A stretch of 64,000 nt of DNA from Actinomycetota bacterium (GCA_046712825.1 JBKKCR010000096.1:590-64589), one strand, 5' to 3'. Positions 49,400-62,801 are shown, numbered from the stretch's first letter. Notes: generated from the letters alone by a model not told the origin. Program-made: numbers and translations.

Positions 49400-49523
49400 C
49401 GTCTGCGGCAGGGCCGCACGGTCAACCTACCAGGGCCGTCACCCGAGCCGGGCTTGCCTCGATGCTGCGGCTAACCGTCCCGAAGGGTCCTCCGCCGTCT
49501 CGGTCGAATACGCTGAACCCTCT

Positions 49524-50243: not shown

Positions 50244-50268
50244 GAGGGCTTGAGCGTGCGGCCCGAGC

Positions 50269-51744: not shown

Positions 51745-51951
51745 GCGTGTCCCCTGTACATGTACGCAGGTTACGTCTGGGCCTTACACGCGGATAACGA
51801 ATCCCCCTGCCACTCGATTCGACGGCGAGCCAAGGAATCCTCTCTAAGCGGTAAGTTCGGGCGACTATGGGTGATCCGGTCGAGACTCCGAGTGAGTCGA
51901 ACTGGTTAGTGGAGGGGCGGCGGCCAGGCGACGGGCTACACTCGGCCCTCG

Positions 51952-53121
51952 ATGCGCTTGGCCGTTTACCACCCCTGGACATACCTGCAAGGCGGGATCG
52001 AGCGGATCCTCGTCGAGCTCTTCCGTCGAAGCAGACACTCCTGGACTCTCTATACCCACCGATTCGAGTCGGAAGGAACGTTCCCGGAGCTTTCGAGTAA
52101 TCCGGTCGTCGAGCTGTCACCGAGAGTGTCGGTGAAGCGATCGCTGGGCCCCCTTGCCCACGCTGCGTGGACGATGGGGAGGGCTCGCCTTCCCGAGCAA
52201 GGCAACAAGGCGCTTCTGGTGTCTTCGGAGGGGCTGGGTGACTTCATCGTCGCCCGCAACCGCCTGCCGGCCGTCTGCTACTGCCACACGCCGCTCAAGA
52301 TCTTCCACGACCCCGCCACGAACCAGGCGCTCAAGCGCCGCGATCCGCGCAAGGCACTCGCCTTGTCCTTGCTCGGCCCGGCTTTCAACGTCGCCGACCG
52401 GCGCATGTGGCGGCGCTTCCGGCACGTGTTCGTCAGCAGTGAGGAGATCAGGGGCCGCGCCGAGCGCGCCGGTCTGCGTCCGTCGGGTCCGGTCGAGATC
52501 CTTCCGCCCGGCGTCGATCTCGAGTGGTTCAGCGACGACGGGAACCCGCGAGAGCGGTTCCTGCTCGTCGCGGGTCGCGTGAAGTGGTGGAAGAACATCG
52601 AGCTCGCGATCTCCGGGCTCGCCGAAGCGCATCGCCGCGGCTCGACCGCGCCGATGGTGATCGCCGGCGGCGTCGATCCACTCGACGGGGAGTATCTGGA
52701 CCGTCTGCGCGCGCAGGCCAGCGGCCTGCCGGTGACGTTCGAGACCGAGCCCACACAGGAGCGGCTGCGGGAGCTCTACCGCCGCTGCGCGGCTCTCGTC
52801 CTTCCGACGCTCAACGAGGACTTCGGCATGGTGCCGCTCGAGGCTATGGCGTGCGGAGCCCCCGTCGTGGCCGTCGACTCCGGCGGCCCACGTGAGACCG
52901 TCGTGCCGGGGAAGACGGGCTGGCTCGTGCCGCCAACGCCGGAGGCGTTCGCCGAGGCGATCGCGCGAGCGACCTCCGGTGAAGGGCCCATCCCCGGCGT
53001 TCGCGAGGCTGCACGGGCCCGCGCCGAGCAATTCACCTGGGGGAGATTCGTAAACCGACTGGACGACGTGATGGAGGCGGTGGCGCTACAGGAACCCGAG
53101 CGAGGACAACGCGGCCCGTAG
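51952..53121 (+). CDS. Glycosyltransferase family 4
   Basis: ...EDFGMVPLEAMACGAPVVAVDSGGPRETV. Confidence 0.75.
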   Translation: MRLAVYHPWTYLQGGIERILVELFRRSRHSWTLYTHRFESEGTFPELSSNPVVELSPRVSVKRSLGPLAHAAWTMGRARLPEQGNKALLVSSEGLGDFIVARNRLPAVCYCHTPLKIFHDPATNQALKRRDPRKALALSLLGPAFNVADRRMWRRFRHVFVSSEEIRGRAERAGLRPSGPVEILPPGVDLEWFSDDGNPRERFLLVAGRVKWWKNIELAISGLAEAHRRGSTAPMVIAGGVDPLDGEYLDRLRAQASGLPVTFETEPTQERLRELYRRCAALVLPTLNEDFGMVPLEAMACGAPVVAVDSGGPRETVVPGKTGWLVPPTPEAFAEAIARATSGEGPIPGVREAARARAEQFTWGRFVNRLDDVMEAVALQEPERGQRGP

Positions 53122-54120
53122 CTGCTCGGCGGCGTCGGACCAGCGCCACGCGGGCGGTGGGCCGAAGGCGACCTCGCCGCGGAGCGCATCTCGCATCGCG
53201 GAAGCCCACGCTTCGACGTCCCCCGGACGCACGAACCTCGCGGCGTCTCCCGTGCTCTCGTGCAGCACCGGGATGTCAGACACCAACGCCGGCACGCCGC
53301 ACGCGAGCGCCTCGACGGGGGGGAGTCCGAAGCCTTCGTAGCGCGACGGGAACACCAGCGCGGCCGCGCCCGTGAGCAACGAGCGCAGGTCCTCGTTCGG
53401 CAGGTATCCGATGACCTGGACGGTCGGGGCGTCCGGGATGTGAACGGGCCCGAAGTTGGAGTGCGGACGGCCGACGACGACCAGGCGGTGCGGGGTCTCA
53501 GCGACGATGGAGAGATGTGCCGCGACCGCGGTTGCAACGTCCTTGCGCGGGTCGGCCCAGCCGACGCACAAGAGATACGGCTCGGTGAGTCCCAGACGCC
53601 CCTTTGCTGCCGCGACGGCATCGGGTGTGGCGGGTCCGTACCCGTCATCGAGCGCGTTCCGTACCGCGAAGACGCGGTCGGGGGAGTAGCCACCGGCGAT
53701 GAGCTCCCGCCGGACCTGCTCGCTCGGCGTGAGGATCCCGCGAGCCCGTTTCGCGGACGCCCCGGCCAGCCGGCCGTAGAGGCGGCCGATCCGGCTGAAC
53801 CACGTGGGGTCGATCTCCCAGCCGAGGTCGTGGATCATCACGATGCTTCGTCGCACTGCGAGAGGTGCGGTGTTGGCCAACGAGATGATCGGGCGTCGCC
53901 CGGCCGCCCGCGGCAGCAGGACCTGCTCCCAGACGTGCTCGCCGAACCGCCCGGGAGGCGCCCAAACCGCTCGATCCACTCGGGGGTCGTCGGCGCCCGC
54001 TGGGGCGATAACCTCGAGTCGGAGCCCCGCAGCCCGGCCACCGTCCACCAGGCCCCTCCCGACCCGGTGGATGCCGGTAGCCGCCCCCCGCAAGAAGCGG
54101 CCGTTGACGACCAGACTCAC
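53086..54120 (-). CDS. Glycosyltransferase family 4 (mannosyltransferase-like)
   Basis: ...YEGFGLPPVEALACGVPALVSD; convergent 36-nt overlap with the previous gene. Confidence 0.75.
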   Translation of the reverse strand: MSLVVNGRFLRGAATGIHRVGRGLVDGGRAAGLRLEVIAPAGADDPRVDRAVWAPPGRFGEHVWEQVLLPRAAGRRPIISLANTAPLAVRRSIVMIHDLGWEIDPTWFSRIGRLYGRLAGASAKRARGILTPSEQVRRELIAGGYSPDRVFAVRNALDDGYGPATPDAVAAAKGRLGLTEPYLLCVGWADPRKDVATAVAAHLSIVAETPHRLVVVGRPHSNFGPVHIPDAPTVQVIGYLPNEDLRSLLTGAAALVFPSRYEGFGLPPVEALACGVPALVSDIPVLHESTGDAARFVRPGDVEAWASAMRDALRGEVAFGPPPAWRWSDAAEQLRAALSSLGFL

Positions 54121-54349
54121 GTGGCTCCCTTCAGCGTTCTCGGCGGGTGCGAGCGTAGCGGCGCAGCAGGATAGAGGCCCTGGTCCGGCATGTCACGGGG
54201 CAGATTCACCGACCTTCCGAATGGGCAGGAAACCACCCAGGGCACGACGAACCAAACGGAATGCTACTGTCCGGTCGGAATTTTTCTGGAGCATGAAGAT
54301 CGGACCGCGTCGGACGCGACGTGAAACACCCTGGGGAGGGAGCCAACTC

Positions 54350-56251
54350 ATGCATGGGCGTATCCGGGTCGTGCTCCTTGTCGGCAGCATCGTCGCGGCG
54401 GGTCTCGGCGTCGCAGCGGCGGCGCCATCGCCCGTCCACCCGCTCCCGCACCCCCTTCCCGAGCCCGGCTTTCTCGAGCCCGTCCCGGCAGGCGAGTGCA
54501 CGTCCACGAACGAGTACGAGTCCAAGCTATGGTCCGGCTACGGGGACAAGTGCAAGCGGCTCCACTTCGTCTTCGGCCCGATCATCGCGAAGCCCGGCCA
54601 GAACGACGTCCTCATCGAGCCGGTCACCATCCAGAAGCCGGCCTACGACGGATACATCGTGCGGTTCCGGCCCGACCTGGTGGACGTGACCGGGCAGCCC
54701 CCGCCGATCGAGGAGATCCACCTCCACCATGCCACTTGGCTGAACGTCTATCCGCAATACGGCAGCGGCCCCTTCTTCGCCGCCGGTGAGGAGAAGACGA
54801 TCGCCACCTTCCCGCCGGGCTACGGCATGCACGTCGGCGCGACCGACACGTGGCTGCTGCTCTACATGGTGCACAACGCGATCCAGTCGCCGCGGCCGGT
54901 CTGGATCACCTACGACGTCGACTTCGTTGCCGAGGAGGACGCCGAGGCGCTCGGAATCGTTCCGGTGAAGCCGGTCTGGCTGGACGTGCAGCAGAAGCCG
55001 ATCGCCCCCGGTGCGACGGATACGGGCGGCAACCCGGTGTTCAACGTTCAGCGCGGGTTCGGCGCCACCGACTCGGCGCTCTTCGGCGATCCGGCCATCG
55101 GTGCGGGTACCGGACGGAACGTGTGCTCGTGGCCCGAACAGAACTGCGCGCGCCATGACGTCTACGGCAATGTGACGCCGCAACAAGGCGTGCCGATCAC
55201 GGTCCCCGGTGCCGACTGGACGGTGGGGGAAGGCTTCGAAGGCACGTTGATCGGGATCGGCGGGCACCTGCATCCCGGTGGGATCCGCGACGAGGTGAGC
55301 CTCGTCCGGAACGGCGTCGAGAAACCGATCTTCTTCTCTGAGGCCGTCCCGTGGGAGCACAACGACATCAACGGCAACGGGAAGATCGACGCAGGCGTCT
55401 ACGACGAGCTGGACTCGTGGGACTTCTCGATGACGGTGACCGGCTCGACGCTGGGATGGAAGGTCAAGATCAAGGAAGGCGACGTCCTCCGGCTCAACGC
55501 GATCTACGACTCCCAGAACGCCTCGTGGTACGAGAACATGGGGATCGTCGTCGCGATGGTCGCCCCCGCGGAGACGGAGCGGGAAGATGCGCTTCACAAC
55601 GGACCAGGCGTCGACGTCTTCGACGACAACGTGATCCTGGATCAGGGACTGCCGGTGATGGCGACGGAGGCTCCAGGATGGCCGACGCCGTCGTGCGCGC
55701 CCGACGCGGTGAGCGCGACGAAGCGGCTCTGCCTGCGCGGTCAGGTGACGCACGGGCACATGGAGGAGGCCAGCCACCATGGCGGCGCCGCAGGACCGGC
55801 CCTCCCGGAGGCGCCCGGGCCGATGGTCGACCAGCTCGTTTCAGTCGGGTTCACGTACGGGCAGGCGGACCTCGGTCTCGCGGGAACCATGGGCGTCCCG
55901 CAGCTGAAGCTCGGGAAGTCGGCGCGTTTCTGGAACCTCGATTCGCCGCTCGATATCTGGCACACCTGGACCCGCTGCAAGGAACCGTGCACCGGCGGTA
56001 CGGGGATCTCGTATCCGCTCGCGAACGGCGGAACCGGGCTGAGCGACACGATGGACTTCGATTCGACCGAGATCGGCTACGGCCTGTTCTTTTCTCCGGC
56101 GAGCGGCCAGCTGGGCGGCCCGAACAAGTCGACGGGCGAGGCGCTGCAGGATGGGCTCTTCTGGGACTTCACGCCATCCCAGACCGGCACGTTCTCGCTG
56201 TTCTGCCGGATCCATCCGTTCATGCGCGGCGTGTTCCAAGTCGTGGAGTAA
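54350..56251 (+). CDS. Secreted His-rich 633-aa protein with C-terminal cupredoxin-like (type-1 Cu) domain
   Basis: Start re-assigned inside ORF 53804..56251 to MHGRIRVVLLVGSIVAAGLGVAAAAPSP (signal peptide; the upstream part is antisense to the GT4). His clusters EIHLHHATW, GGHLHPGG; C-terminus ...NLDSPLDIWH...FSLFCRIHPFMRGVFQVV (H...C-x-x-H-x-x-M). Confidence 0.55.
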   Translation: MHGRIRVVLLVGSIVAAGLGVAAAAPSPVHPLPHPLPEPGFLEPVPAGECTSTNEYESKLWSGYGDKCKRLHFVFGPIIAKPGQNDVLIEPVTIQKPAYDGYIVRFRPDLVDVTGQPPPIEEIHLHHATWLNVYPQYGSGPFFAAGEEKTIATFPPGYGMHVGATDTWLLLYMVHNAIQSPRPVWITYDVDFVAEEDAEALGIVPVKPVWLDVQQKPIAPGATDTGGNPVFNVQRGFGATDSALFGDPAIGAGTGRNVCSWPEQNCARHDVYGNVTPQQGVPITVPGADWTVGEGFEGTLIGIGGHLHPGGIRDEVSLVRNGVEKPIFFSEAVPWEHNDINGNGKIDAGVYDELDSWDFSMTVTGSTLGWKVKIKEGDVLRLNAIYDSQNASWYENMGIVVAMVAPAETEREDALHNGPGVDVFDDNVILDQGLPVMATEAPGWPTPSCAPDAVSATKRLCLRGQVTHGHMEEASHHGGAAGPALPEAPGPMVDQLVSVGFTYGQADLGLAGTMGVPQLKLGKSARFWNLDSPLDIWHTWTRCKEPCTGGTGISYPLANGGTGLSDTMDFDSTEIGYGLFFSPASGQLGGPNKSTGEALQDGLFWDFTPSQTGTFSLFCRIHPFMRGVFQVVE

Positions 56252-56263
56252 GGAGGATCGTCG

Positions 56264-56629
56264 ATGAGATCTCGCACCGACAAGCGTCGTGGTTCCGTGT
56301 TGATCGCGCTCGTCGCGGTGGTCGCCGTGCTGGCGATGCTGACGCCGGCGAGCGCCGCACCGTCGTTCGTGGTCGCCGGGCCCGGCAACGCCGCCTCGCC
56401 CGTCTACTACACGCCGTTCGTCGTTCTGCAGAAGGGTCAGCCGCTCAACTTCGTCAACCTCGATATCGCGCCTCACGATGTTCGCTCGACGAGCGGCCTG
56501 TTCTTCTCTGCCTTGATCACCATCGGCAAGAAGACGGCGGTCAATGGCGTCCAGAACCTGGCGAAGGGTTCCTACAAGTTCTACTGCTCGCTCCACCCGA
56601 TCATGAAAGGCACGCTCCGGGTCATCTGA
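56264..56629 (+). CDS. Small secreted cupredoxin (plastocyanin/amicyanin-like blue copper protein)
   Basis: Signal peptide; NFVNLDIAPHDV (His ligand) ... YKFYCSLHPIMKGTLRV (Cys-His-Met ligands). Confidence 0.7.
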   Translation: MRSRTDKRRGSVLIALVAVVAVLAMLTPASAAPSFVVAGPGNAASPVYYTPFVVLQKGQPLNFVNLDIAPHDVRSTSGLFFSALITIGKKTAVNGVQNLAKGSYKFYCSLHPIMKGTLRVI

Positions 56630-56651
56630 CGTCTCGACGCGAGGACGAGTC

Positions 56652-58418
56652 ATGCTCAACTGGAAACGCTCCTGGCCGGAACTGTCCGAGGATCTGCCGT
56701 TGGATGTAACGCCGTATTCGAACGGTGAGTTCATCCCACCGCCGCCGACCGAGAAGCAGAAGCTCATCATGCGGCTCGCGAACGAAGAGTCCGAGCGGCT
56801 GCGCCGCAAGATGGGGATGTCCCGTCGCCAGTTCGTGCGCACCGCCGCTGCGTACACCGTGGGCCTATGGGCGATCAATCAGGTCGGATTGCGGTTCGGA
56901 AGCGACGCCGGCGCCGACAACACCGAGACGACCGCTCCGTGCGACCTCGAGTGGGAGGGCGCGAGCGGCGTCGCAACGCTCGGCAACATGCCCGGCGAGT
57001 TCATCTTCGACATCCAAAGTCACCACATCGACGCCAACGGCCTCTGGCGGGTGAAGAACCCGGCGTTCGAGGTGTTCTTCGCGGCCGCGTGGTCGCAGGC
57101 CGGCCCGACCGGCGGCTGGCCGGGCGTTCGTCCGGACGGGACGATCCGCGGGTTCGGCGCCGGGGAGCTCGACCCGATCGCCAATCTGTCCCGCTACCAC
57201 TACGTCAAGGAGATGTACCTCGACAGCGCGACGAACATGTGCGTGCTCTCGGCCGTGCCGTCTTCGCCTGAGAATCAGCCGTTGCCGATCATGGAAGCCG
57301 CGGAGACCGTGGCGATGGTCAACGAGATGGCCGGCGGCACCCAGCGCGCCGTCATGCACGCGTTCGTGATGCCCAACCGCGGCGCGTACGGCACCAATCA
57401 GGCTCCCGTCGGTCCGAAGCCGCTGTACATGCAGGAGGAGTTCGACGCGATGGAGGAGATCGCCGGCCTCTACGGGCCCGGCGGCTCGAACATCCTCCGC
57501 GGCTGGAAGACGTACTGCCCGTGGGGCGACGTTCCGAACGCGACCGGATGGATGTTCGACGACCGGGTCGGCGAGGCGTTCATCGCGCAGGTTCGTCACG
57601 TCGGCGACACGCTCGGCGCACCCAAGGTCATCGCGACGCACAAGGGGTTCGCGCTTCCGGGCTTCGACCAGCGCGCCGCCTCTCCCCGCGACATCGGTCC
57701 GGCCGCGAAGCAGAATCCCGATATCGCTTTCATCGTGTACCACTCGGGCTACGACATCGGGGACTCGCAAGGCCCGTATCCGACGCCGAACTTCGTGACG
57801 CGGCAGGGACGCGGCATCGATTCGCTGATCAAGAGCCTCATCGACGCGGGGCACGACGCGGCCGTCTACGTTCCGGCCGGCAAGACCTTCGGCAACGTCC
57901 CGAACGTCTATGCCGAGCTCGGCTCGGTGTGGTCGGGCGTGATGTCGGATCAGTTCGAGGCTGCGCATCTGCTCGGCAAGCTCATCAAGTACGTCGGCCC
58001 GAAGCGCGTCGTATGGGGAACCGACAGCATCTGGGGCGGATCGCCTCAAGGCATGATCGCCCGTCTCCGCGAGTTCCCGCGCGCCAACGAGACACAGGCG
58101 CTCGAGATCTTCAACAGCTACGGGATGCCGTGGGCGCTGGAAGGCGACGTCGAGGACCCGACGGTCAAGGCTCCGACCCCGGAACGGACGATCCGCAACG
58201 CGATCCTCGGGCGCAACGCCGCGGTGCCGTATGGGATCGACCCGGACGCACAGCGCAACGCGATCAACTGTGATGACCTTCATCGCACTCGGGACGACTA
58301 CATAGTCGACGTCGGCACGATGCAGGAATCGGCTCCGATGCGTTCGAACGTCGTCTACGGCTACCGGAGCCGTCGCGAGCTGTTCCGCGACCTGGCCTCG
58401 AAGCCCTGGGCACCGTAG
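56652..58418 (+). CDS. Tat-exported metal-dependent hydrolase, Amidohydro_2 (TIM-barrel) family
   Basis: Twin-arginine motif MSRRQFVRTAAAYTVGLWA (the true start may be ATG ~56811); ...VYHSGYD..., VVWGTDSIWGG. Confidence 0.6.
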   Translation: MLNWKRSWPELSEDLPLDVTPYSNGEFIPPPPTEKQKLIMRLANEESERLRRKMGMSRRQFVRTAAAYTVGLWAINQVGLRFGSDAGADNTETTAPCDLEWEGASGVATLGNMPGEFIFDIQSHHIDANGLWRVKNPAFEVFFAAAWSQAGPTGGWPGVRPDGTIRGFGAGELDPIANLSRYHYVKEMYLDSATNMCVLSAVPSSPENQPLPIMEAAETVAMVNEMAGGTQRAVMHAFVMPNRGAYGTNQAPVGPKPLYMQEEFDAMEEIAGLYGPGGSNILRGWKTYCPWGDVPNATGWMFDDRVGEAFIAQVRHVGDTLGAPKVIATHKGFALPGFDQRAASPRDIGPAAKQNPDIAFIVYHSGYDIGDSQGPYPTPNFVTRQGRGIDSLIKSLIDAGHDAAVYVPAGKTFGNVPNVYAELGSVWSGVMSDQFEAAHLLGKLIKYVGPKRVVWGTDSIWGGSPQGMIARLREFPRANETQALEIFNSYGMPWALEGDVEDPTVKAPTPERTIRNAILGRNAAVPYGIDPDAQRNAINCDDLHRTRDDYIVDVGTMQESAPMRSNVVYGYRSRRELFRDLASKPWAP

Positions 58419-58422
58419 CGCG

Positions 58423-60348
58423 ATGACGAGGCGCATGGTCTTCCGTGCGGCGCTTCTCGCCGTCGCTCTAGCGGCCGTCGTCGTTGCGCCTGGTGCCGGA
58501 GTTGCGGCCGCGACCTGTGCTCCCACGACGACCTCGACGGGCGACCCATGGCCCGGCGGTGAGTGGCGATGGTATGGCCACGATTACTCGAACTCACGGA
58601 GTCAGCCCGAGGAGACCGTGATCGGAGCGGACAACGTCCGTGATCTCGGTCCCGCCTGGGTCTTCTCCACGTCCAACGCCGTCGCCGACGGCGGCGGGTT
58701 CAGCAACACGCCGGTCGTCGCCGACGGATGCGTCTACCTGGCTTCGAACACCGGCTGGGTCTTCTCGCTCAACGCCGACACGGGCGAGCTGCTTTGGAGC
58801 ACGAAGCTCACGGGCGAAGGGCAGACGCTCGTTGGTGGTGTCATCGTTGGCTCGCCGACCGTCGTCAACGGGCTCGTGTTCTTGGGCGTGAGTCAGCCCG
58901 GCGCCCCCTACGTCGCCGCGCTAGACCAGGCGACGGGGGAAGTCCTTTGGACCACCGTCGTCGAGACCGGCCAGCCGAGCTCGTTCATCAACGCCGGACC
59001 GTTGTACTTCGACGGCATGATCCTTCAGGGCTTCGCGGGCTTCGAAGGGAACACGGAGGTCTCGCGCGGCGGGTTCGCCGTCGTCGATGCCGGGCGCGAG
59101 TGCGAATCGAGTTCGGTCACCGTCTGCACCGACTCGATCGCCGGCGCGCTCGGCGGTCGGGTCCTCGCCCATCAGCACACGATCCCCGACGACCTCTACG
59201 CTGAGGGGTTCCGGGGCGCTTCGTTCTGGTGCACGCCGTCGCTCGACGTCGAATCCCGCTACGCCTTCGGCTGCGGCGGGAACCCGCACAGCGAGGGCAT
59301 GGAGGCTCCGCACGCGAACTCTTTGTTCAAGATCGACCTCGATCGGAACCGGCCGACCTTCGGGACGATCGTCGACCACTACAAGGGCAACGTCGATCAG
59401 TACTACCCGGGCATCGATAAGCAGCCGGTATGCGAGAACTTCCGCGACGAGACGACCGTGGTCGTGTGGAGCCTCGGGTGCTTCATGCTCGACCTCGACT
59501 TCGGGGGGTCGCCGAACCTGTTCCGCAACGCGGCGGGTCGCCTGGTGATCGGCGATCTGCAGAAGTCGGGTGTGTACCACGCCGCCTACGCGGACGATAT
59601 GACCGCCGCGTGGAAAGCGATCGTCGGCGTGCCGTGCTTCAGCTGTAACGGGACGTCGGGGGCGTTCGACGGCGAGGGCATCTACACGGTGGGCACACCC
59701 CCGAGCCAGCTCGTCGGTCTCGATCGCGAAGGTGGCGCGGCTCCGTACAAGTGGGTGACGCCGATCCTCGACCTCATCCACTATCAGTCGGTGACCGTCG
59801 CGAACGGTGTCGTCTACGTCATGGACAACCTCGGCTCGCTCAACGCGGTCGACGCCCGCACCGGCGTGCCGCTCCTCAAGCGGCCGCTTACGCTCGACGC
59901 CGAGGGGGAGATCGCGACGGATGCGGGGAGCAGCGCGGGCGTTTCCGTGGCTCGCAACACGGTGTACGCGGCGGCGAGCGAGTTCGTCGTCGCCTACAAG
60001 GTCGGCGGTGAAGGCGGCGGCCCCAGTCTTCCCGGCCTGCCTTCGCTGCCCGGCATCGGCGGCGGGGTCCCGGTCGTCGCCGGCCCCGGCGCAGCAGCCG
60101 CGACGTATCTCACGCCCGTTTCGCTCGTGCAGGCCGACGCTCCGTCGCTGTCGTTCCTGAACCTCGATATCGCACAGCACGACGTGGATCACAAGCCTGC
60201 GGCCGGCCAGCCGAAGCTGTTCGACAGCCCGCTCATCGGGACCGGTCAGACGGCCCAGGTCACGTTTACCGGCCCGCTCGAGGCGGGAACCTACGACTTT
60301 TACTGCTCGATACACCCCAATATGTTCGGGAAGCTGATCGCGACATAG
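58423..60348 (+). CDS. Secreted PQQ-dehydrogenase-like 8-bladed beta-propeller fused to a C-terminal cupredoxin domain
   Basis: Signal peptide; WRWYGHDYSNSRSQPEETVIGADNVRDLGPAWVFST (quinoprotein-ADH N-terminal signature); PQQ-type repeats (NADTGELLWST, ALDQATGEVLWTT, AVDARTGVPLL); C-terminus FLNLDIAQHDV...YDFYCSIHPNMFGKLIA. Confidence 0.65.
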   Translation: MTRRMVFRAALLAVALAAVVVAPGAGVAAATCAPTTTSTGDPWPGGEWRWYGHDYSNSRSQPEETVIGADNVRDLGPAWVFSTSNAVADGGGFSNTPVVADGCVYLASNTGWVFSLNADTGELLWSTKLTGEGQTLVGGVIVGSPTVVNGLVFLGVSQPGAPYVAALDQATGEVLWTTVVETGQPSSFINAGPLYFDGMILQGFAGFEGNTEVSRGGFAVVDAGRECESSSVTVCTDSIAGALGGRVLAHQHTIPDDLYAEGFRGASFWCTPSLDVESRYAFGCGGNPHSEGMEAPHANSLFKIDLDRNRPTFGTIVDHYKGNVDQYYPGIDKQPVCENFRDETTVVVWSLGCFMLDLDFGGSPNLFRNAAGRLVIGDLQKSGVYHAAYADDMTAAWKAIVGVPCFSCNGTSGAFDGEGIYTVGTPPSQLVGLDREGGAAPYKWVTPILDLIHYQSVTVANGVVYVMDNLGSLNAVDARTGVPLLKRPLTLDAEGEIATDAGSSAGVSVARNTVYAAASEFVVAYKVGGEGGGPSLPGLPSLPGIGGGVPVVAGPGAAAATYLTPVSLVQADAPSLSFLNLDIAQHDVDHKPAAGQPKLFDSPLIGTGQTAQVTFTGPLEAGTYDFYCSIHPNMFGKLIAT

Positions 60349-60594: not shown

Positions 60595-60861
60595 ATGGCG
60601 GACGAAAGGAGGCGAGCCGTGGGCATCGGAGCCAGCATCTTCTTGTTTGCCGTCGGTGCGATCCTGGCGTTCGCTGTTGAGGCGAACACGCGAGGGATCG
60701 ACCTCAACGCGGTTGGAGTCATTCTCATGGTCGTCGGAGCGATCGGGCTTTTGATCTCAATGATGCTGTTGAGCAGCTGGTCGCCGTGGTACCGGCGTCG
60801 CGACGAGACCATCATCACCGAAGACGTGCACGAGCCCCGCGCCGTGCACCATCACCACTAA
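60595..60861 (+). CDS. Small 2-TM membrane protein (DUF6458-like), His-rich C-terminus
   Basis: GIGASIFLFAVGAILAFAV...GIDLNAVGVILMVVGAIGLLISMML; the likely real start is GTG 60622, 8 nt after AAAGGAGG. Confidence 0.55.
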   Translation: MADERRRAVGIGASIFLFAVGAILAFAVEANTRGIDLNAVGVILMVVGAIGLLISMMLLSSWSPWYRRRDETIITEDVHEPRAVHHHH

Positions 60862-60867
60862 GCCGCT

Positions 60868-60905
60868 CAGACCGGCACCGGGCCAGACGCTCCGGTGCCG
60901 GTCTG
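60868..60905. terminator. Perfect 14-bp inverted repeat (cagaccggcaccgg / ccggtgccggtctg, 10-nt loop) 7 nt after the stop codon
   Basis: Read directly from the sequence. Confidence 0.5.
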
Positions 60906-60908
60906 TGA

Positions 60909-61148
60909 CGGTCCCAAAGGAACGTACCCGGCGAGCTCTCGGTCGAACTGCCGCTTCCACGCCATTTCGAGCAAGCCTCGGAGCTTCTGTCCGAGGACGA
61001 TGTATGCAAGGAGCTCACGTGCGGGCCGGATCCCGACCGCCACCACGAAGCCATCCGCACCTACACCGAGGCGGGGTACGACCACGTCTACGTCCATCAG
61101 ATCGGGCCGGATCAGCGCGGATTCTTCGAGTTCTACGAGGAAGAGATC
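60909..61148 (+). pseudogene. C-terminal ~75-codon remnant of an F420-dependent LLM-family oxidoreductase (Fgd-like)
   Basis: Frame with no start codon: ...HFEQASELLSEDDVCKELTCGPDPDRHHEAIRTYTEAGYDHVYVHQIGPDQRGFFEFYEEEILPRF (compare the Fgd/LLM C-terminal ...GPDQ..F..FY...VLP motif); strong GC3 bias; begins right at the hairpin. Confidence 0.45.
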
Positions 61149-61164
61149 TTGCCGCGTTTCGGGA

Positions 61165-62331
61165 CTAGGCTGCGCGCCGGCGCGACTTCCGCTTGGCCGC
61201 CTTCAAGCTCCTGTGAAGCGCATCCCCGACGGAAGGCATGGATTCCGGGAGGCCCTTCAAGAACGCAAGAAGGGTCGCCTCGTCCGGGCGAAGCCGGTCG
61301 TCTGGCTCCGAGCCGTTCTTCCTCGCCCGTCGGCGAGGCAACGTAACGAGTGAGCCGTCGAGGTAGGCGTCGACGATCGCGGGATGCACGTAGCACGCGC
61401 GGCACACCGCGACCGTGTTCCCGAGGGTCGACGCGACCGTCTCGATGGCGGCAAGGATATTGCTCTTGGTCTCGCGGTCCGACGTCGCCGGCGCCGCGTC
61501 TCGCAGCGCCCGCAACGCGAGCACCGTTCCGGCCCAGGTGCGGAAGTCTTTCGCAGTGAAGTCCTCGTCGGTCGACGCCCGCAGGTAGGCATTCACGTCC
61601 TCGGAGTCGATCGGCTTCCTCTCGCCCGACTCGTCGAGGTACTGGAAAAGGTGCTGGCCGGGGATCTCCTGACACCGCTTGACGATGCGCGCGACTCGTT
61701 GATCGCGGAGGTCGACCGTGTGCATCTTGCCGCTCTTGCCGCGGAACTCGAACCGGATCGTCGAGCCCGACACGTCCACGTGGCGGCCTCGCATCGTCGT
61801 CAACCCGAACGACCCGTTGTCCTTGGCATAGCGCGTGTTGCCGACACGGATATACGTGAGGTCGATCAGGCGCACGACGGTCGCAAGAACCTTTTCGCGC
61901 GGGAGCCCCGGCAAGCTCATGTCCTCACGGACGTGCTTGCGGATCGCCGGCAAGGCTTCACCGAATGCCGCTAGGCGGTTGTACTTCGTCTGATCGCGGG
62001 TCTGTCGCCAAGCCCGGTGGTAGCGGTATTGCTTGCGGCCGCGCGCGTCCCGGCCCGTCGCCTGGATGTGTCCGCGGGGCGAAGGGCAGATCCAGATGTC
62101 GATCCACGCGGGCGGCACGGCCAGCGCCTTGATGCGGTGAAGGTCCGCCTTGTCGCGGATGGGCTTCCCGTCGGGGCCGATGTAGGAGAAGCCGCGGCCG
62201 GAGCGTTTCCGACGGATCCCCGGGGCCTCGTCGACGACGTAGATCAGCCCGGCATCGTGTGCGGCTTCGACGGCCGGATCCTCGACCGGCGCGCGCACGG
62301 TCCTTTGAGTACGATTCGTCTTCTTCGTCAT
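61165..62331 (-). CDS. DNA topoisomerase IB (poxvirus/bacterial TopIB type)
   Basis: ...RVGNTRYAKDNGSFGLTTMRGRHVDVSGSTIRFEFRGKSGK... matches the TopIB N-terminal and catalytic-domain pattern; ~388 aa with a basic C-terminal tail. Confidence 0.7.
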   Translation of the reverse strand: MTKKTNRTQRTVRAPVEDPAVEAAHDAGLIYVVDEAPGIRRKRSGRGFSYIGPDGKPIRDKADLHRIKALAVPPAWIDIWICPSPRGHIQATGRDARGRKQYRYHRAWRQTRDQTKYNRLAAFGEALPAIRKHVREDMSLPGLPREKVLATVVRLIDLTYIRVGNTRYAKDNGSFGLTTMRGRHVDVSGSTIRFEFRGKSGKMHTVDLRDQRVARIVKRCQEIPGQHLFQYLDESGERKPIDSEDVNAYLRASTDEDFTAKDFRTWAGTVLALRALRDAAPATSDRETKSNILAAIETVASTLGNTVAVCRACYVHPAIVDAYLDGSLVTLPRRRARKNGSEPDDRLRPDEATLLAFLKGLPESMPSVGDALHRSLKAAKRKSRRRAA

Positions 62332-62465
62332 GGTCGCTTCTCCGGGATGAGGCTCGGGTTCCTTTCCCAGCCGGGGCTTTTCCCAAGCGTTCGCACTCTG
62401 CGCGTTTGATCGTGACCGGATCGCGGTAGGTATCCGGAATCGTTCTTCGGCCGGGGGAGGACCTC

Positions 62466-62801
62466 GTGGACGGCGCGTTCCACACGAAGCTCGAGCACGA
62501 CGATCTTGCTTGGACCCTTGTCTGCGGCGGCGAGCTCGATCTCGCGACCGCGATGCGACTCGAGGAGGCGTTCGACCTCTGCGAGCAGATGCGCCCCCGA
62601 TCCATCCACATAGACGCTCGCGATGTGTCCTTCATCGATAGCGCTGGGATCACCGCGCTGATCCGGTGTGCTCACCGGTGCAACGAAGAAGGGATCGGCT
62701 TCAGCTTGGAGCCCAGCCAACAGGTGAGAGCCATCCTGCACGAGGCGGGGATCGCGGAGCGTCTTCTGCTGGGGCGGCCCACAGCGCCGGCTCCCGCCTA
62801 G
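62466..62801 (+). CDS. STAS-domain protein (anti-sigma-factor antagonist-like)
   Basis: LVCGGELDLATAMRLEEAF...IHIDARDVSFIDSAGITALIR; GTG start. Confidence 0.6.
   Translation: MDGAFHTKLEHDDLAWTLVCGGELDLATAMRLEEAFDLCEQMRPRSIHIDARDVSFIDSAGITALIRCAHRCNEEGIGFSLEPSQQVRAILHEAGIAERLLLGRPTAPAPA

What the first reader, a model, noticed from the sequence alone, without database searches (positions are those of the whole stretch)
54350..60348. Secreted copper cluster: three proteins with cupredoxin domains plus a Tat-exported amidohydrolase
Three consecutive products carry the H…C-x-x-H-x-x-M cupredoxin signature, each with an upstream NLD[IS]..HD/LDIWH His ligand: the C-terminus of a His-rich 633-aa protein, a 121-aa stand-alone cupredoxin, and the C-terminus of a PQQ-like propeller. 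A twin-arginine amidohydrolase sits between them. This looks like an extracytoplasmic oxidative pathway with its own electron carriers. The substrate is unknown; given its position next to the glycan locus, modification or catabolism of the polymer or of a sulfated or amino compound is conceivable.
Basis: partly seen in the sequence, partly recalled or inferred. Interest (0 to 1): 0.6.

Follow-up and report, generated by a model that had tools for sequence, protein, structure and literature searches.

The report
Bacterial PHM-like copper monooxygenase operon
Four secreted proteins from an uncultured soil actinobacterium form a conserved, unstudied operon whose first protein looks like the animal hormone-processing copper monooxygenases PHM/DBH but carries its own blue-copper electron-entry domain, next to a quinoprotein-like dehydrogenase that has the same kind of domain.

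Summary
Four tightly packed + strand genes (54350-60348) carry three cupredoxin modules. The motif C-x2-H-x2-M occurs exactly three times in the six-frame translation of the window, at those three sites.

The interpretation needs sharpening:
- **Protein A (633 aa).** Its "His-rich" N-terminal part is predicted to have the two-domain fold of peptidylglycine alpha-hydroxylating monooxygenase and dopamine beta-hydroxylase (the top 30 PDB matches). An HxHH...H / HxH...M residue set is invariant in 79 relatives. A type-1 copper domain follows.
- **Protein D.** It is a PQQ-dehydrogenase-like propeller with a C-terminal cupredoxin. It keeps the Trp243 and Asn261 equivalents of methanol dehydrogenase but lacks the Cys-Cys pair.
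- **Protein C.** It is a divergent Amidohydro_2 barrel, closest in fold to decarboxylases and lactonases. Its Tat-like motif sits behind a conserved 55-residue extension.
- **Conservation.** The order A, C, D is kept in 44 of 57 informative loci. In at least two MAG lineages A and D are fused in frame.
- **Glycan locus.** The adjacency is not conserved.

Best reading: an extracytoplasmic C-H-oxidising module that does not use ascorbate. The dehydrogenase would feed electrons through blue-copper domains to the monooxygenase. The substrate is unknown. I found no description of the family, and every database entry I saw is from uncultured bacteria.

The parts
54333..54342 (+). Shine-Dalgarno-like GGGGAGGGAG ahead of the ATG of gene A
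   Evidence: Read from the sequence. It supports the start at 54350 rather than the upstream in-frame GTG at 53804.
54350..56251 (+). Gene A, 633 aa: signal peptide, PHM/DBH-fold (Nod19-like) domain, linker, C-terminal cupredoxin
   Evidence: ORF. More than 2000 homologues, none with a functional name. AF2 model with pLDDT 78 and pTM 0.83. Foldseek against the PDB gives PHM/DBH as the top 30 hits.
54350..54424 (+). A, residues 1-25: Sec-type signal peptide (MHGRIRVVLLVGSIVAAGLGVAAAA)
   Evidence: Kyte-Doolittle 15-residue maximum of 2.57 at residues 7-21. Four pairs of Cys conserved in 74-79 of 79 relatives fit an exported protein.
54482..55579 (+). A, residues about 45-410: two beta-sandwich domains of the PHM/DBH fold. 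Proposed CuH-type residues are His124/His126/His127 (54719-54730) and His175 (54872-54874). Proposed CuM-type residues are His306/His308 (55265-55273) and Met397 (55538-55540).
   Evidence: Foldseek E 3e-8 to 1e-5, probability 1.00, to 1phm, 3mll, 1opm, 4zel and others. All seven residues are invariant in 79 sequences of 36-75% identity and in the sister subfamily. Weak SURNod19 hit at residues 94-135.
55580..55804 (+). A, residues 411-485: linker region with conserved Cys449/Cys461 and the motif QVTHGH (His468, 55751-55753)
   Evidence: Thr467 and His468 are conserved in at least 97% of 79 sequences. The role is unknown. A part in electron transfer between the type-1 site and the CuH-type site is only a guess.
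55805..56248 (+). A, residues 486-633: cupredoxin module with an insertion of about 40 residues. Proposed ligands His538 (55961-55963), Cys619 (56204-56206), His622 (56213-56215), Met625 (56222-56224).
   Evidence: Alignment to amicyanin over CRIHPFMRG. Ligands invariant. Pfam Copper-bind or Cupredoxin_1 weak in 15 and 11 of 38 members. The register of His538 is ambiguous.
56264..56629 (+). Gene B, 121 aa: secreted stand-alone amicyanin-like cupredoxin. Ligands His71 (56474), Cys108 (56585), His111 (56594), Met114 (56603).
   Evidence: Pfam Cupredoxin_1 and Copper-bind above their cut-offs. phmmer to amicyanin E 3e-6 with all four ligand-bearing segments aligned.
56652..58418 (+). Gene C, 588 aa: divergent Amidohydro_2 (beta/alpha)8 barrel with a conserved N-terminal extension and a Tat-like motif
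   Evidence: Pfam Amidohydro_2 24.4 bits. More than 3700 homologues, most with PF04909. AF2 model with pLDDT 70. Foldseek to IDCase, dihydroxybenzoate decarboxylases, LigW, ACMSD and a cog3618 amidohydrolase, E 2e-6 to 9e-4.
56652..56816 (+). C, residues 1-55: conserved N-terminal extension (SWPxLSEDLPxDVxPxSNGExxPPPP...ERxRRK)
   Evidence: Conserved at the protein level in 34 homologues of 57-85% identity, with Pro16, Pro21, Ser23, Asn24, Glu26, Pro29, Arg51 and Arg52 invariant. tblastn hits in many loci start at residue 1.
56817..56891 (+). C, residues 56-80: Tat-like motif MSRRQFVRTAAA followed by a weakly hydrophobic stretch
   Evidence: Arg58, Phe61, Val62 and Arg63 are invariant. Arg59 is R in 24, A in 8 and S or G in 2 of 34 homologues. 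The Kyte-Doolittle 15-residue maximum is only 1.21 and no 19-residue window exceeds 1.6, so a transmembrane anchor is unlikely.
56985..58256 (+). C, residues about 112-535: catalytic barrel. Invariant Asp120/Gln122/His124/His125 (57009-57026), His330 (57639), His364 (57741), Asp458 (58023).
   Evidence: Invariant columns. Alternating strand-helix pattern in the model. Assigning these residues to barrel strands 1, 5, 6 and 8 rests on motif resemblance and my own knowledge of ACMSD-type enzymes. It was not verified by superposition.
58423..60348 (+). Gene D, 641 aa: signal peptide, PQQ-dehydrogenase-like beta-propeller, Gly/Pro linker, C-terminal cupredoxin
   Evidence: Pfam PQQ 60.6 bits, PQQ_2 58.8 bits, Copper-bind 27.1 bits. 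TIGR03075 79.8 bits, far below its 480 cut-off. PDB sequence hits.
58555..60012 (+). D, residues 45-530: propeller. Glu208 (59044), Trp269 (59227), Asn287 (59281), Asp359 (59497), Lys381 (59563). The positions of the methanol dehydrogenase Cys-Cys pair are Gly143/Ser144.
   Evidence: The profile of 32 homologues matches quinoprotein alcohol and methanol dehydrogenases over the N-terminal half, E 5e-27 to 4e-16. hmmalign to 1h4i maps Trp243 to Trp269, Asn261 to Asn287 and Cys103/104 to Gly143/Ser144. Glu208 is kept in 29 of 32, Asp359 in 30 of 32 and Lys381 in 32 of 32.
60103..60345 (+). D, residues 561-641: cupredoxin module. Ligands His586 (60178), Cys628 (60304), His631 (60313), Met634 (60322).
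   Evidence: Pfam Copper-bind above its cut-off. Amicyanin hit E 1.6e-5 over residues 555-640. Ligand columns in the joint alignment.

Best explanation
The four genes encode an extracytoplasmic oxidative module built around a bacterial relative of the noncoupled binuclear copper monooxygenases (PHM, DBH, TBM).

Proposed roles:
- Protein A would bind three coppers. An electron-accepting CuH-type site (His126/His127/His175, perhaps with His124) and an O2-activating CuM-type site (His306/His308/Met397) would hydroxylate a C-H bond. A fused type-1 copper domain would take the place of ascorbate, which the eukaryotic enzymes use, as the port for single electrons.
- Protein D, a PQQ-dehydrogenase-like propeller with its own type-1 copper domain, would oxidise a substrate and send the two electrons to A. 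Transfer would be direct or go through the free cupredoxin B.
- Protein C, an Amidohydro_2-type barrel exported to the same compartment, would hydrolyse or decarboxylate a product of the pathway.

The most economical version is a redox-balanced loop. A hydroxylates a C-H next to a heteroatom or an aromatic ring. D oxidises the resulting alcohol or hemiacetal to a carbonyl or lactone and returns exactly the two electrons that A needs. C then opens or trims the product. Such a module would need only O2 and no soluble reductant outside the cell.

What is shown and what is inferred:
- Shown: the gene set, the domain folds, the invariant residues, the conserved gene order and the A-D fusions.
- Inferred: copper occupancy, the direction of electron flow, the PQQ cofactor, the loop stoichiometry and every statement about the substrate.

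The confidence of 0.55 applies to the core claim: a PHM-type copper monooxygenase with a cupredoxin electron port that works together with D and C. For the redox-balanced loop alone I would give about 0.3.
For: 1. Fold of A. An AF2 model (pLDDT 78, pTM 0.83) gives PHM or human DBH as the top 30 Foldseek PDB hits (E 3e-8 to 1e-5, probability 1.00). The next hits (E 1e-4 and weaker) include two copper enzymes, a nitrite reductase and a multicopper oxidase whose entry title names a C-terminal cupredoxin domain. I read those two as matches to A's cupredoxin.
2. Ligand pattern. HxHH and H lie on strands of the first sandwich. HxH and M lie in the second sandwich. This is the same order as PHM His107/His108/His172 and His242/His244/Met314 (PHM sequence checked; ligand roles from PMC12164859). 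All are invariant in 79 relatives down to 36% identity and in a sister subfamily (hhalign E 1e-110).
3. Type-1 sites. These are documented in B and D and largely in A.
4. Functional coupling. A, then C, then the propeller, then a cupredoxin occur in this order in 44 of 57 loci with enough downstream sequence. These loci span Thermoleophilia, Acidimicrobiia, Frankiaceae/Mycobacteriales and unclassified Actinomycetota. A and D are fused in frame through a Pro-rich linker in L054 and L042. P0276 (1211 aa) has the same domain order.
5. D resembles quinoprotein dehydrogenases. It keeps the N-terminal W-x-x-G-x-D...R...N-V...L...W-x-F signature. Trp269 and Asn287 align to methanol dehydrogenase Trp243 and Asn261, and Glu208 is kept in 29 of 32 homologues.
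6. Location. A, B and D have hydrophobic N-terminal signals. C has a Tat-like motif. A has four conserved Cys pairs.
7. Indirect. The family touches Pfam SURNod19: P0332 scores 25.7 bits against a cut-off of 25, and there are repeated weak hits over both the HLHH and the HxH...M regions. Plant Nod19 is a validated target of miR398b and falls together with the copper enzyme CSD1 under copper deficiency (PMC3882225).
Against: - No sequence method links A to PHM. phmmer and hmmsearch against the PDB, hhalign, a global pairwise alignment and hmmalign all fail. Pfam Cu2_monooxygen and Cu2_monoox_C do not hit.
- The fold match rests on a predicted model. TM-scores are modest (0.38-0.54 on the target). 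I could not superimpose the ligands, so their register is inferred from order and domain location.
- D lacks the vicinal Cys-Cys of methanol and ethanol dehydrogenases. The second half of its propeller does not align to them. The equivalents of Asp303 and Arg331 are by-eye motif matches only. Whether the organism makes PQQ is unknown.
- The first His of the usual HxH of C is a Gln, and its solved neighbours are decarboxylases and a lactonase. Its chemistry is open.
- 9 of 57 informative loci have A alone. The roughly 500-aa sister subfamily is always stand-alone in the two contexts I examined. A can therefore work with other electron donors, and the loop is not obligatory.
- There are no expression, metal or activity data.
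Confidence: 0.55

Rival explanations
1. A dehydrogenase-to-respiratory-chain shuttle. D is the only catalyst that matters. It oxidises an alcohol, aldehyde or sugar outside the membrane. The cupredoxins, including the one on A, carry the electrons to a membrane terminal oxidase, as in the methylamine dehydrogenase-amicyanin and quinohaemoprotein alcohol dehydrogenase-azurin systems (my own knowledge). In this reading the PHM-like part of A is an oxidase or electron sink that reduces O2 to H2O2 or water, not a substrate hydroxylase.
For: All three modules have the short amicyanin-type C-x2-H-x2-M loop. D resembles quinoprotein dehydrogenases. A glyoxal-oxidase-like gene, whose family I know as H2O2-producing copper radical oxidases, lies near the module in 6 related loci. 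That hints at peroxide chemistry.
Against: A complete CuM-type His2Met set is invariant over thousands of sequences. Conserving the whole set strictly is hard to explain for a mere sink. A also occurs without D in many genomes. No membrane oxidase or cytochrome gene is conserved next to the module.
Confidence: 0.2
2. The cluster modifies or degrades the polymer made by the adjacent glycan locus, or a sulfated or amino compound. The amidohydrolase is the central enzyme and the copper proteins are accessories.
For: In the window the cluster starts 230 bp from a divergent GT4 glycosyltransferase. It follows a Bac_transf gene, a second GT4 and a methyltransferase. The closest long relative, L001, has the same arrangement, with Wzy_C, GT2 and GH99-like genes.
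Against: Only L001 of 79 related loci shares that neighbourhood, and L004 shares it weakly. The module is found in unrelated contexts, for example inside the Pup-proteasome region in L002. The conserved core is A + C + D, not the glycan genes. C is closest in fold to decarboxylases and a lactonase, not to deacetylases.
Confidence: 0.07
3. Copper handling rather than catalysis. A and its partners are periplasm-type copper-binding, storage or resistance proteins, comparable to CopI-type cupredoxin-like proteins. The His and Met residues buffer Cu(I)/Cu(II).
For: There are several His/Met/Cys sites and secreted cupredoxin-like modules. Plant Nod19 responds to copper supply. One stand-alone locus has an ArsR-type regulator and an Nramp transporter next to A.
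Against: The conserved residues are few, fixed and arranged as in catalytic sites. They are not His/Met-rich low-complexity tracts (His is only 3.2% of A). A is consistently linked and sometimes fused to a dehydrogenase-like propeller and linked to a hydrolase-fold enzyme. No CopA/CopB/CopC/CopD-type neighbours are conserved.
Confidence: 0.06
4. The PHM resemblance is only a shared jelly-roll double sandwich, as in PNGase F, which shares the PHM fold (my own knowledge). The N-terminal part of A would then be a binding or hydrolytic domain with a different metal site, or none.
For: There is no sequence-level link to PHM. TM-scores are modest and RMSD values high. The model is a prediction from 38 fairly similar sequences.
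Against: The top 30 PDB hits are all PHM or DBH. No PNGase F or other double-sandwich protein appears at E below 1e-4. The six invariant His plus one Met fall in the two domains in the PHM order. A fused electron-transfer domain makes sense only for a redox site.
Confidence: 0.1

Closest known systems
Peptidylglycine alpha-hydroxylating monooxygenase, dopamine beta-monooxygenase and tyramine beta-monooxygenase (noncoupled binuclear copper monooxygenases; Pfam Cu2_monooxygen + Cu2_monoox_C)
   Same: Predicted two-sandwich fold. The same order of candidate ligands: HH...H in domain 1 and HxH...M in domain 2 (PHM ligands per PMC12164859). A secreted, disulfide-rich protein.
   Different: No detectable sequence similarity and no Pfam membership. 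One extra invariant His (HxHH). Large insertions, for example 131 residues between His175 and His306 against 70 in PHM. A fused type-1 copper domain in place of dependence on ascorbate. Bacterial, and embedded in an operon with a dehydrogenase-like propeller and a hydrolase-fold enzyme.
Plant 'Stress up-regulated Nod19' / MtN19 family (Pfam PF07712), function unknown
   Same: The only Pfam family touching the domain. The window protein hits profile positions 28-69 with its FRPDLVD...HLHH region. Members of the sister subfamily hit positions 275-369 with the HxH...M region, and P0332 is above the cut-off. Plant Nod19 is regulated together with copper proteins by miR398b (PMC3882225).
   Different: The window protein itself is far below the cut-off (12.8 bits against 25). 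The Pfam SURNod19 profile is 377 positions long, which leaves no room for a cupredoxin module; I did not examine plant sequences directly. I could not check whether they keep the His/Met set.
Amicyanin with methylamine dehydrogenase, and type II quinohaemoprotein alcohol dehydrogenase with azurin (quinoprotein-to-cupredoxin electron transfer; partner relations from my own knowledge)
   Same: Amicyanin is the best PDB sequence match of all three modules, with the same short C-x2-H-x2-M loop. D pairs a quinoprotein-like propeller with a one-electron carrier domain at its C-terminus. Quinohaemoprotein alcohol dehydrogenases do the same with a haem c domain, and they are among D's PDB hits (1yiq, 1kv9, 1kb0).
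   Different: Here the carrier is covalently fused to the propeller and is a cupredoxin, not a cytochrome. The proposed acceptor is a monooxygenase, not a cytochrome or terminal oxidase. D lacks the Cys-Cys pair, and its C-terminal half does not align to known PQQ enzymes.
Fungal dehydrogenase-LPMO pairs (cellobiose dehydrogenase or AA12 PQQ pyranose dehydrogenase donating electrons to a copper monooxygenase outside the cell; my own knowledge)
   Same: The same logic: a secreted dehydrogenase with a built-in electron-transfer domain would prime a secreted copper monooxygenase where no NAD(P)H is available. The dehydrogenase product, a lactone, would suit a lactonase-type Amidohydro_2 enzyme.
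   Different: The folds and copper sites are unrelated: a histidine brace against a PHM-type dicopper site, and haem b against type-1 copper. No carbohydrate-binding module or conserved glycoside hydrolase neighbours were seen. This is an analogy only.
ACMSD-type decarboxylases and cog3618 lactonases of the Amidohydro_2 branch (IDCase 4lak, 2,3-DHBD 7bp1, gamma-resorcylate decarboxylase 2dvt, LigW 4l6d, ACMSD 4ofc, amidohydrolase 4do7)
   Same: Best structural neighbours of C. C has a conserved His/His/Asp set (His330, His364, Asp458). By motif these sit where I would expect the strand 5, 6 and 8 residues of these enzymes.
   Different: C is about 250 residues longer. It has a Q-x-H-H in place of the usual H/E-x-H on strand 1, a conserved 55-residue N-terminal extension and a Tat-like motif. 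It has no PDB sequence match even with a profile. All the solved relatives are cytoplasmic enzymes, as far as I know.

Membership tests
Type-1 (blue) copper cupredoxins, plastocyanin/azurin/amicyanin family | Sequence membership in Pfam Copper-bind or Cupredoxin_1 above the curated cut-off | tested here: met
   B: 31.4 bits (cut-off 27) and 23.6 (cut-off 21.2). D C-terminus: 27.1 (cut-off 21.2). The C-terminus of A is not met on its own. Only 15 and 11 of 38 family members give weak hits.
Type-1 (blue) copper cupredoxins, plastocyanin/azurin/amicyanin family | Four ligands, His...Cys-x2-His-x2-Met, in register with a solved type-1 site | tested here: met
   B and D align to the ligand-bearing segments of amicyanin. 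A matches the Cys, His and Met. Its upstream His538 is invariant but lies about 3 residues later in the alignment.
Type-1 (blue) copper cupredoxins, plastocyanin/azurin/amicyanin family | Copper bound, with an intense absorption near 600 nm and small EPR hyperfine splitting | not testable with these tools
   Needs expressed protein.
Noncoupled binuclear copper monooxygenases (PHM/DBM/TBM) | Two-domain beta-sandwich catalytic core | tested here: met
   Foldseek of the AF2 model against the PDB gives PHM or DBH for ranks 1-30, E 3e-8 to 1e-5, probability 1.00. This is a prediction, not an experimental structure.
Noncoupled binuclear copper monooxygenases (PHM/DBM/TBM) | CuH site of three His (HH...H) in domain 1 and CuM site of His-x-His...Met in domain 2 | tested here: inconclusive
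   The pattern is present in the right order and domains and is invariant in 79 sequences plus the sister subfamily. Sequence alignments do not put the ligands in register.
Noncoupled binuclear copper monooxygenases (PHM/DBM/TBM) | Sequence membership in Pfam PF01082/PF03712, or detectable homology to PHM | tested here: not met
   No Pfam hit even at E up to 10 in 38 members. No PHM hit by phmmer or hmmsearch against the PDB. hhalign probability 0.05.
Noncoupled binuclear copper monooxygenases (PHM/DBM/TBM) | Ascorbate as the physiological reductant | not testable with these tools
   I expect this not to hold. The fused cupredoxin and the partner dehydrogenase suggest protein-mediated reduction (inference).
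Pfam SURNod19 (PF07712) | Score above the gathering cut-off of 25 bits | tested here: not met
   The window protein scores 12.8 bits, and 9 of 38 close relatives give weak hits. A relative at E 9e-33 to the window domain, P0332, does pass with 25.7 bits. Four of 28 members of its subfamily match at E up to 0.05, best 1e-6. The family is therefore at the edge of this Pfam model, not inside it.
PQQ-dependent 8-bladed propeller dehydrogenases | Pfam PQQ propeller domain and the N-terminal quinoprotein signature | tested here: met
   PF01011 60.6 bits (cut-off 26.7). The profile matches alcohol and methanol dehydrogenases at E 5e-27 to 4e-16, but only over the first 230-260 of 479 profile positions. 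NCBIfam TIGR03075 scores 79.8 against a cut-off of 480, so subfamily membership is not met.
PQQ-dependent 8-bladed propeller dehydrogenases | Metal- and PQQ-contacting residues (methanol dehydrogenase Glu177, Trp243, Asn261, Asp303, Arg331; roles from my own knowledge) | tested here: inconclusive
   Trp243 maps to Trp269 and Asn261 to Asn287 by hmmalign. They are conserved in 30 of 32 and 32 of 32 homologues. Glu208 (29 of 32), Asp359 (30 of 32) and Lys381 (32 of 32) are motif-level matches by eye. The profile did not align them.
PQQ-dependent 8-bladed propeller dehydrogenases | Vicinal Cys103-Cys104 disulfide of methanol/ethanol-type enzymes | tested here: not met
   The aligned positions are Gly143/Ser144. 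As far as I know, glucose-type PQQ dehydrogenases also lack this pair.
PQQ-dependent 8-bladed propeller dehydrogenases | PQQ biosynthesis genes (pqqA-E) in the genome | not tested
   Only 64 kb of a MAG is available. I did not scan the rest of the window for pqq genes. None lies among the genes I scanned with Pfam on either side of the cluster (49392-54120 and 60595-62801).
Amidohydrolase superfamily, Amidohydro_2 branch (PF04909) | Pfam membership | tested here: inconclusive
   The window protein scores 24.4 bits against a cut-off of 26.4. Most of the 120 listed homologues, including the 100%-identical record, carry a precomputed PF04909 hit.
Amidohydrolase superfamily, Amidohydro_2 branch (PF04909) | (beta/alpha)8 barrel resembling solved members | tested here: met
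   Foldseek E 2e-6 to 9e-4, probability 1.00, to IDCase, dihydroxybenzoate decarboxylases, LigW, ACMSD and a cog3618 amidohydrolase. The model has pLDDT 70, with residues 80-110 and 127-182 unreliable.
Amidohydrolase superfamily, Amidohydro_2 branch (PF04909) | Metal and catalytic residues: H/E-x-H after strand 1, His after strands 5 and 6, Asp after strand 8 | tested here: inconclusive
   His330, His364 and Asp458 are invariant. The strand 1 motif is D-x-Q-x-H-H, with Gln in place of the first His or Glu. The strand assignment is by motif and was not verified by superposition.
Twin-arginine (Tat) signal peptides | N-terminal S/T-R-R-x-F-L-K motif, a mildly hydrophobic h-region and a cleavage site | tested here: inconclusive
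   S-R-R-Q-F-V-R is followed by a weakly hydrophobic stretch (Kyte-Doolittle 1.21) in the window protein. The motif begins at residue 57, after a conserved extension. The second Arg is absent in 10 of 34 homologues. A second, invariant RR pair lies at residues 51-52. No signal-peptide predictor was available.

The most novel reading that the evidence does not exclude
The operon encodes a self-sufficient extracellular C-H oxidation machine that has not been recognised before. A PHM-type dicopper monooxygenase would be wired through blue-copper domains to a quinoprotein-like dehydrogenase that recycles the two electrons from the monooxygenase's own product. The module would then run on O2 alone. 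It would be widespread in uncultured soil Actinomycetota and would attack recalcitrant substrates such as ethers, amines, or benzylic or lignin- and humic-derived carbon. The same fold and ligand set would also make the plant Nod19 proteins, whose function is unknown, copper monooxygenases.
Probability: 0.3. Interest if true: 0.85.

Novelty: new variant of a known kind. Interest (0 to 1): 0.72.

Why it matters
- **A family thought to be eukaryotic.** PHM, DBH and TBM are treated as a small, ascorbate-dependent family. A 2025 review of PHM chemistry names only PHM, DBM and TBM as related monooxygenases and likens the active site of a BURP cyclase to that of PHM. It never uses the word 'prokaryote'.
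- **A large bacterial branch.** The N-terminal domain matches 826 clusters at 50% identity, each of two subfamilies has more than 2000 sequences, and 329 of about 185,000 species representatives carry a relative. A protein-borne type-1 copper donor in these enzymes would give bioinorganic chemists a natural system for studying electron entry into the CuH site and the long-range CuH-to-CuM transfer.
- **New C-H hydroxylases.** Such enzymes would work without ascorbate.
- **Soil carbon turnover.** The conserved coupling to a dehydrogenase-like propeller and a hydrolase-fold enzyme suggests an undescribed extracellular oxidative pathway. It occurs in abundant but uncultured soil lineages (Thermoleophilia, Acidimicrobiia and unclassified Actinomycetota).
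- **Plant Nod19.** The link gives a testable hypothesis for a plant stress and nodulation protein family whose function is unknown.

Tried and rejected
1. Sequence-level proof of homology between A and PHM. I tried phmmer and a 38-sequence profile against all PDB chains, hhalign of the N-domain profile against the verified PHM core sequence, and a global BLOSUM45 alignment and hmmalign. None aligned the ligands. The PHM assignment rests on the fold search and the residue pattern only.
3. A profile of C against PDB sequences found nothing. Only the fold search placed it.
4. Exact-sequence look-ups of the window's own contig for gene calls and Pfam context failed.
5. All-against-all clustering of ORFs in 79 loci was blurred by overlapping high-GC ORFs. 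It showed no further universally conserved neighbour. Targeted tblastn then found three partial companions: a 2-Cys small protein (20 loci), a TetR regulator (14) and a glyoxal-oxidase-like gene (6).
6. Nine literature searches found no paper on bacterial PHM-like enzymes, cupredoxin-fused monooxygenases, quinoprotein-cupredoxin fusions or a biochemical function for Nod19.
7. An N2O-reductase-like reading of D (propeller plus cupredoxin) was rejected. D has no conserved His cluster, and its sequence affinity is to the PQQ family.
8. A membrane-anchor reading of the hydrophobic stretch of C was rejected because the hydropathy is too low.
9. The glycan-locus link was rejected because the linkage is not conserved.

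Full report
**1. What is in the sequence**

Positions 54350-60348 hold four + strand genes:
- A, 54350-56251, 633 aa
- B, 56264-56629, 121 aa
- C, 56652-58418, 588 aa
- D, 58423-60348, 641 aa

The gaps between them are 12, 22 and 4 nt, which is an operon-like layout. The mechanical ORF list extends A upstream to 53804. However, the ATG at 54350 follows a GGGGAGGGAG run, and the 633-aa product is on record with exactly this start. An identical copy of C lies on an NCBI contig of 64,797 bp. Near-identical copies of A and C are named only 'MAG: hypothetical protein [Actinomycetota bacterium]'. The window has 63-72% G+C throughout.

**2. The three cupredoxin signatures are real and not chance**

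- The motif C-x2-H-x2-M occurs exactly three times in all 127,996 residues of the six-frame translation of the window. These are the C-termini of A, B and D.
- B passes Pfam Cupredoxin_1 and Copper-bind. The C-terminus of D passes Copper-bind.
- B aligns to amicyanin (E 3e-6). The segments carrying amicyanin's four copper ligands match B His71, Cys108, His111 and Met114. The amicyanin residue numbers His53, Cys92, His95 and Met98 are from my own knowledge.
- D matches amicyanin over residues 555-640 (E 1.6e-5). Its His586, Cys628, His631 and Met634 fall in the same columns of a joint alignment.
- The C-terminal module of A is weaker by sequence. Its CRIHPFMRG is almost amicyanin's CTPHPFMRG. 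His538, Cys619, His622 and Met625 are invariant in 79 relatives of 36-75% identity.
- The upstream His of A lies about three residues later than in B and D, and about 40 extra residues lie between it and the Cys. That one ligand is inferred.

**3. The N-terminal two-thirds of A has the PHM/DBH fold**

A has more than 2000 relatives, none with a Pfam domain or a functional name. In a 38-sequence alignment the invariant residues include His124, His126, His127, His175, His306, His308 and Met397.

An AlphaFold2 model has pLDDT 78 and pTM 0.83. Searched against the PDB with Foldseek, its first 30 matches are all rat PHM or human dopamine beta-hydroxylase (E 3e-8 to 1e-5, probability 1.00). The next matches (E 1e-4 and weaker) include a copper nitrite reductase and a multicopper oxidase whose title names a C-terminal cupredoxin domain. 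I read those two as matches to the cupredoxin module.

In the model, HxHH and His175 lie on strands of the first sandwich. HxH and Met397 lie in the second sandwich. This is the order of the PHM ligands: His107/His108/His172 for CuH and His242/His244/Met314 for CuM. I checked the PHM sequence against PDB entries. The ligand roles come from a 2025 review (PMC12164859). All seven residues are invariant in 79 sequences from loci of many lineages.

Caveats:
- No sequence method connects A to PHM.
- Pfam Cu2_monooxygen and Cu2_monoox_C do not hit.

The statement 'works like PHM' is therefore supported by fold plus pattern. 'Is a member of the PHM Pfam families' was tested and not met.

**4. A link to plant Nod19**

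- The only Pfam family that touches the domain is SURNod19. The window protein hits profile positions 28-69 with its FRPDLVD...HLHH region, but the score is sub-threshold. Nine of 38 relatives do the same.
- A search of 1.84 billion cluster representatives with the N-domain alone found 826 clusters at E up to 1e-3.
- One of them, P0332 (E 9e-33 to the window domain), passes the SURNod19 cut-off with its HxH...M region (25.7 bits against 25). Four of 28 members of its subfamily match at E up to 0.05.
- That subfamily has more than 2000 sequences of about 500 aa. It is clearly homologous to the window's subfamily (hhalign E 1e-110) and keeps every proposed ligand and the cupredoxin.
- In the two contexts I examined it is encoded by stand-alone genes.
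- Plant Nod19 has no known function. It is a validated target of miR398b and falls together with the copper enzyme CSD1 under copper deficiency (PMC3882225). That fits a copper protein but is indirect.

**5. Protein D**

- Pfam PQQ and PQQ_2 match the N-terminal part.
- A profile of 32 homologues matches quinoprotein and quinohaemoprotein alcohol dehydrogenases and methanol dehydrogenases at E 5e-27 to 4e-16. The matches cover only the first half of the propeller.
- I aligned the profile to methanol dehydrogenase 1H4I, whose sequence I verified. Trp243 maps to Trp269 and Asn261 to Asn287, both conserved. The Cys103-Cys104 pair maps to Gly143/Ser144.
- Glu208 (29 of 32), Asp359 (30 of 32) and Lys381 (32 of 32) resemble the Glu177, Asp303 and Arg331 motifs by eye only.
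- There is no conserved His cluster, so a CuZ-like centre is unlikely.

D is best called a quinoprotein-dehydrogenase-like propeller with a fused cupredoxin. The cofactor is unproven.

**6. Protein C**

- The family has more than 3700 members. Most carry a precomputed Amidohydro_2 hit.
- Invariant residues include Asp120, Gln122, His124, His125, His330, His364 and Asp458.
- No PDB sequence matches even a profile.
- An AF2 model (pLDDT 70) matches isoorotate decarboxylase, 2,3- and 2,6-dihydroxybenzoate decarboxylases, LigW, ACMSD and a cog3618 amidohydrolase (E 2e-6 to 9e-4). 'Amidohydrolase' is therefore right for the fold but says little about the chemistry.
- The SRRQFVRTAAA motif begins at residue 57. 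The 55 residues before it are conserved at the protein level. The second Arg is kept in only 24 of 34 homologues, and an invariant RR pair lies at residues 51-52.
- The following stretch is too weakly hydrophobic for a membrane anchor.

Tat export is plausible but atypical. The conserved extension is unexplained.

**7. The genes form a conserved module**

- A scan of one genome per species found 329 relatives of A. The 77 best loci are all from MAGs. They include unclassified Actinomycetota, Thermoleophilia (Thermoleophilaceae, Solirubrobacterales), Acidimicrobiia, Frankiaceae/Mycobacteriales and some Chloroflexota/Dormibacterota.
- With two loci fetched earlier, 79 loci were analysed. Among the 57 with at least 4.5 kb downstream of A, 44 have both the C-type and the D-type gene in the same order. 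Two have only the propeller, two have only C, and nine have neither.
- Where D lacks its cupredoxin, a separate cupredoxin gene follows it.
- In L054 (Acidimicrobiia) and L042 (labelled Chloroflexi) A runs in frame through a Pro-rich linker into the propeller. P0276 (1211 aa) has the same domain order. These fusions argue that A and D act together.
- Several loci carry two copies of A or two complete modules.
- Partial companions are a secreted 2-Cys protein between C and D in 20 loci (absent from the window), a TetR regulator in 14 and a glyoxal-oxidase-like gene in 6.
- The glycan genes next to the cluster in the window (two GT4, Bac_transf and a methyltransferase) recur only in L001.

**8. 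How it most likely works**

Shown:
- a secreted protein with the PHM/DBH fold
- an invariant HxHH...H / HxH...M residue set
- a fused type-1 copper module
- conserved linkage, and occasional fusion, to a quinoprotein-like propeller that carries the same module
- a co-located Amidohydro_2 barrel

Inferred:
- A hydroxylates a C-H bond at a CuM-type site.
- Its two electrons enter one at a time through the cupredoxin into the CuH-type site. This would replace ascorbate, which I would not expect to be available outside a bacterial cell.
- D supplies those electrons by oxidising a substrate. B is an optional shuttle.
- C processes a product.

A balanced loop is attractive because it needs no external reductant. 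It would run in three steps: hydroxylation, dehydrogenation of the new alcohol or hemiacetal (which returns two electrons), then hydrolysis or decarboxylation. It is speculation.

The substrate is unknown. The characterised relatives act on glycine C-alpha-H or benzylic C-H (PHM, DBH), alcohols (PQQ enzymes) and hydroxybenzoates or lactones (Amidohydro_2). That is compatible with aromatic or heteroatom-adjacent carbon, but it does not identify the substrate.

**9. Novelty**

- Nine full-text searches found no description of a bacterial PHM-type enzyme, a cupredoxin-fused monooxygenase of this fold, or a quinoprotein-cupredoxin fusion.
- A 2025 review names only PHM, DBM and TBM as related monooxygenases and likens a BURP cyclase site to that of PHM.
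- The PDB matches with the PHM/DBH fold are all rat or human enzymes. No bacterial protein of this fold appears.
- Database names are 'hypothetical protein', 'plastocyanin' or 'cupredoxin domain-containing protein'.

I rate it a new variant of a known kind: a noncoupled dicopper monooxygenase with a built-in blue-copper donor, inside a conserved three-enzyme extracytoplasmic module. The verdict rests on predicted structure and comparative genomics. No biochemical property has been tested.

Noticed in passing
window 56652-56816 (C residues 1-55): A 55-residue N-terminal extension is strongly conserved in front of the Tat-like motif of the Amidohydro_2 protein (Pro16, Pro21, Ser23, Asn24, Glu26, Pro29, Arg51 and Arg52 invariant). 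Signal-peptide n-regions are normally short and variable. It might be a docking site for an export chaperone, or a cytoplasmic or regulatory segment.
   Followed up: partly
L054:1905-5696 and L042:7470-11687; protein P0276: Natural in-frame fusions of the PHM-like/cupredoxin protein with the propeller/cupredoxin protein through a Pro-rich linker. These loci have no Amidohydro_2 gene.
   Followed up: yes
L002:13619-14188 and the equivalent position in 19 other loci (for example L011:11651-12103, L048:8462-8929): A secreted protein with an aligned conserved core of about 150 residues lies between the Amidohydro_2 and propeller genes in 20 related loci. It has two invariant Cys and no Pfam match. 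The window lacks it. It may be a small subunit of the propeller enzyme.
   Followed up: partly
L002:5785-7824; also L048, L010, L008, L014, L006: A glyoxal-oxidase-like gene (Glyoxal_oxid_N + GO-like_E_set) lies close to the module in six related loci. Two conserved unknown genes lie between it and A in some of these loci. I know this family as H2O2-producing copper radical oxidases, so this hints at peroxide chemistry.
   Followed up: partly
proteins P0332, P0411-P0529 (alignment A5); loci L080, L081: A sister subfamily of about 500 aa has the same PHM-like ligand set and cupredoxin. It has more than 2000 sequences and is encoded by stand-alone genes in unrelated contexts. A few members pass Pfam SURNod19. 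Plant Nod19 proteins may therefore be copper monooxygenase-like, which fits their regulation by miR398.
   Followed up: partly
L063, L057, L059, L049, L050, L053: Two copies of the PHM-like gene, or two complete A-C-D modules in tandem, occur in single loci of Thermoleophilaceae MAGs. This suggests paralogous diversification, as is typical of catabolic enzymes.
   Followed up: no
L059:7130-7825 and 13 other loci: A TetR-family regulator gene lies beside the module in 14 related loci. The window has none.
   Followed up: partly
window 55751-55753 (A His468, motif QVTHGH) and Cys449/Cys461: A conserved THGH motif and a Cys pair lie in the linker between the PHM-like domains and the cupredoxin. 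They are also kept in the sister subfamily. They might be a fourth metal site or an electron-transfer relay.
   Followed up: no
window 49392-54120: A glycan-assembly locus lies directly upstream on both strands: a class I methyltransferase (49392-50243), a Bac_transf priming transferase (50269-51744, - strand) and two GT4 glycosyltransferases (51952-53121 + and 53086-54120 -). The two GT4 ORFs overlap by 36 nt at their 3' ends.
   Followed up: partly
window 60595-62801: Downstream genes look unrelated to the cluster: a DUF6458 small membrane protein (60595-60861), a bacterial type IB topoisomerase (61165-62331, - strand) and a STAS-domain protein (62466-62801). The same trio follows the module in L001.
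   Followed up: partly
L030 (labelled Burkholderiales MAG) and L033 (labelled Streptomyces sp. MAG): Two relatives of A sit on short contigs whose MAG taxonomic labels lie outside the main distribution. This could be mis-binning or lateral transfer.
   Followed up: no
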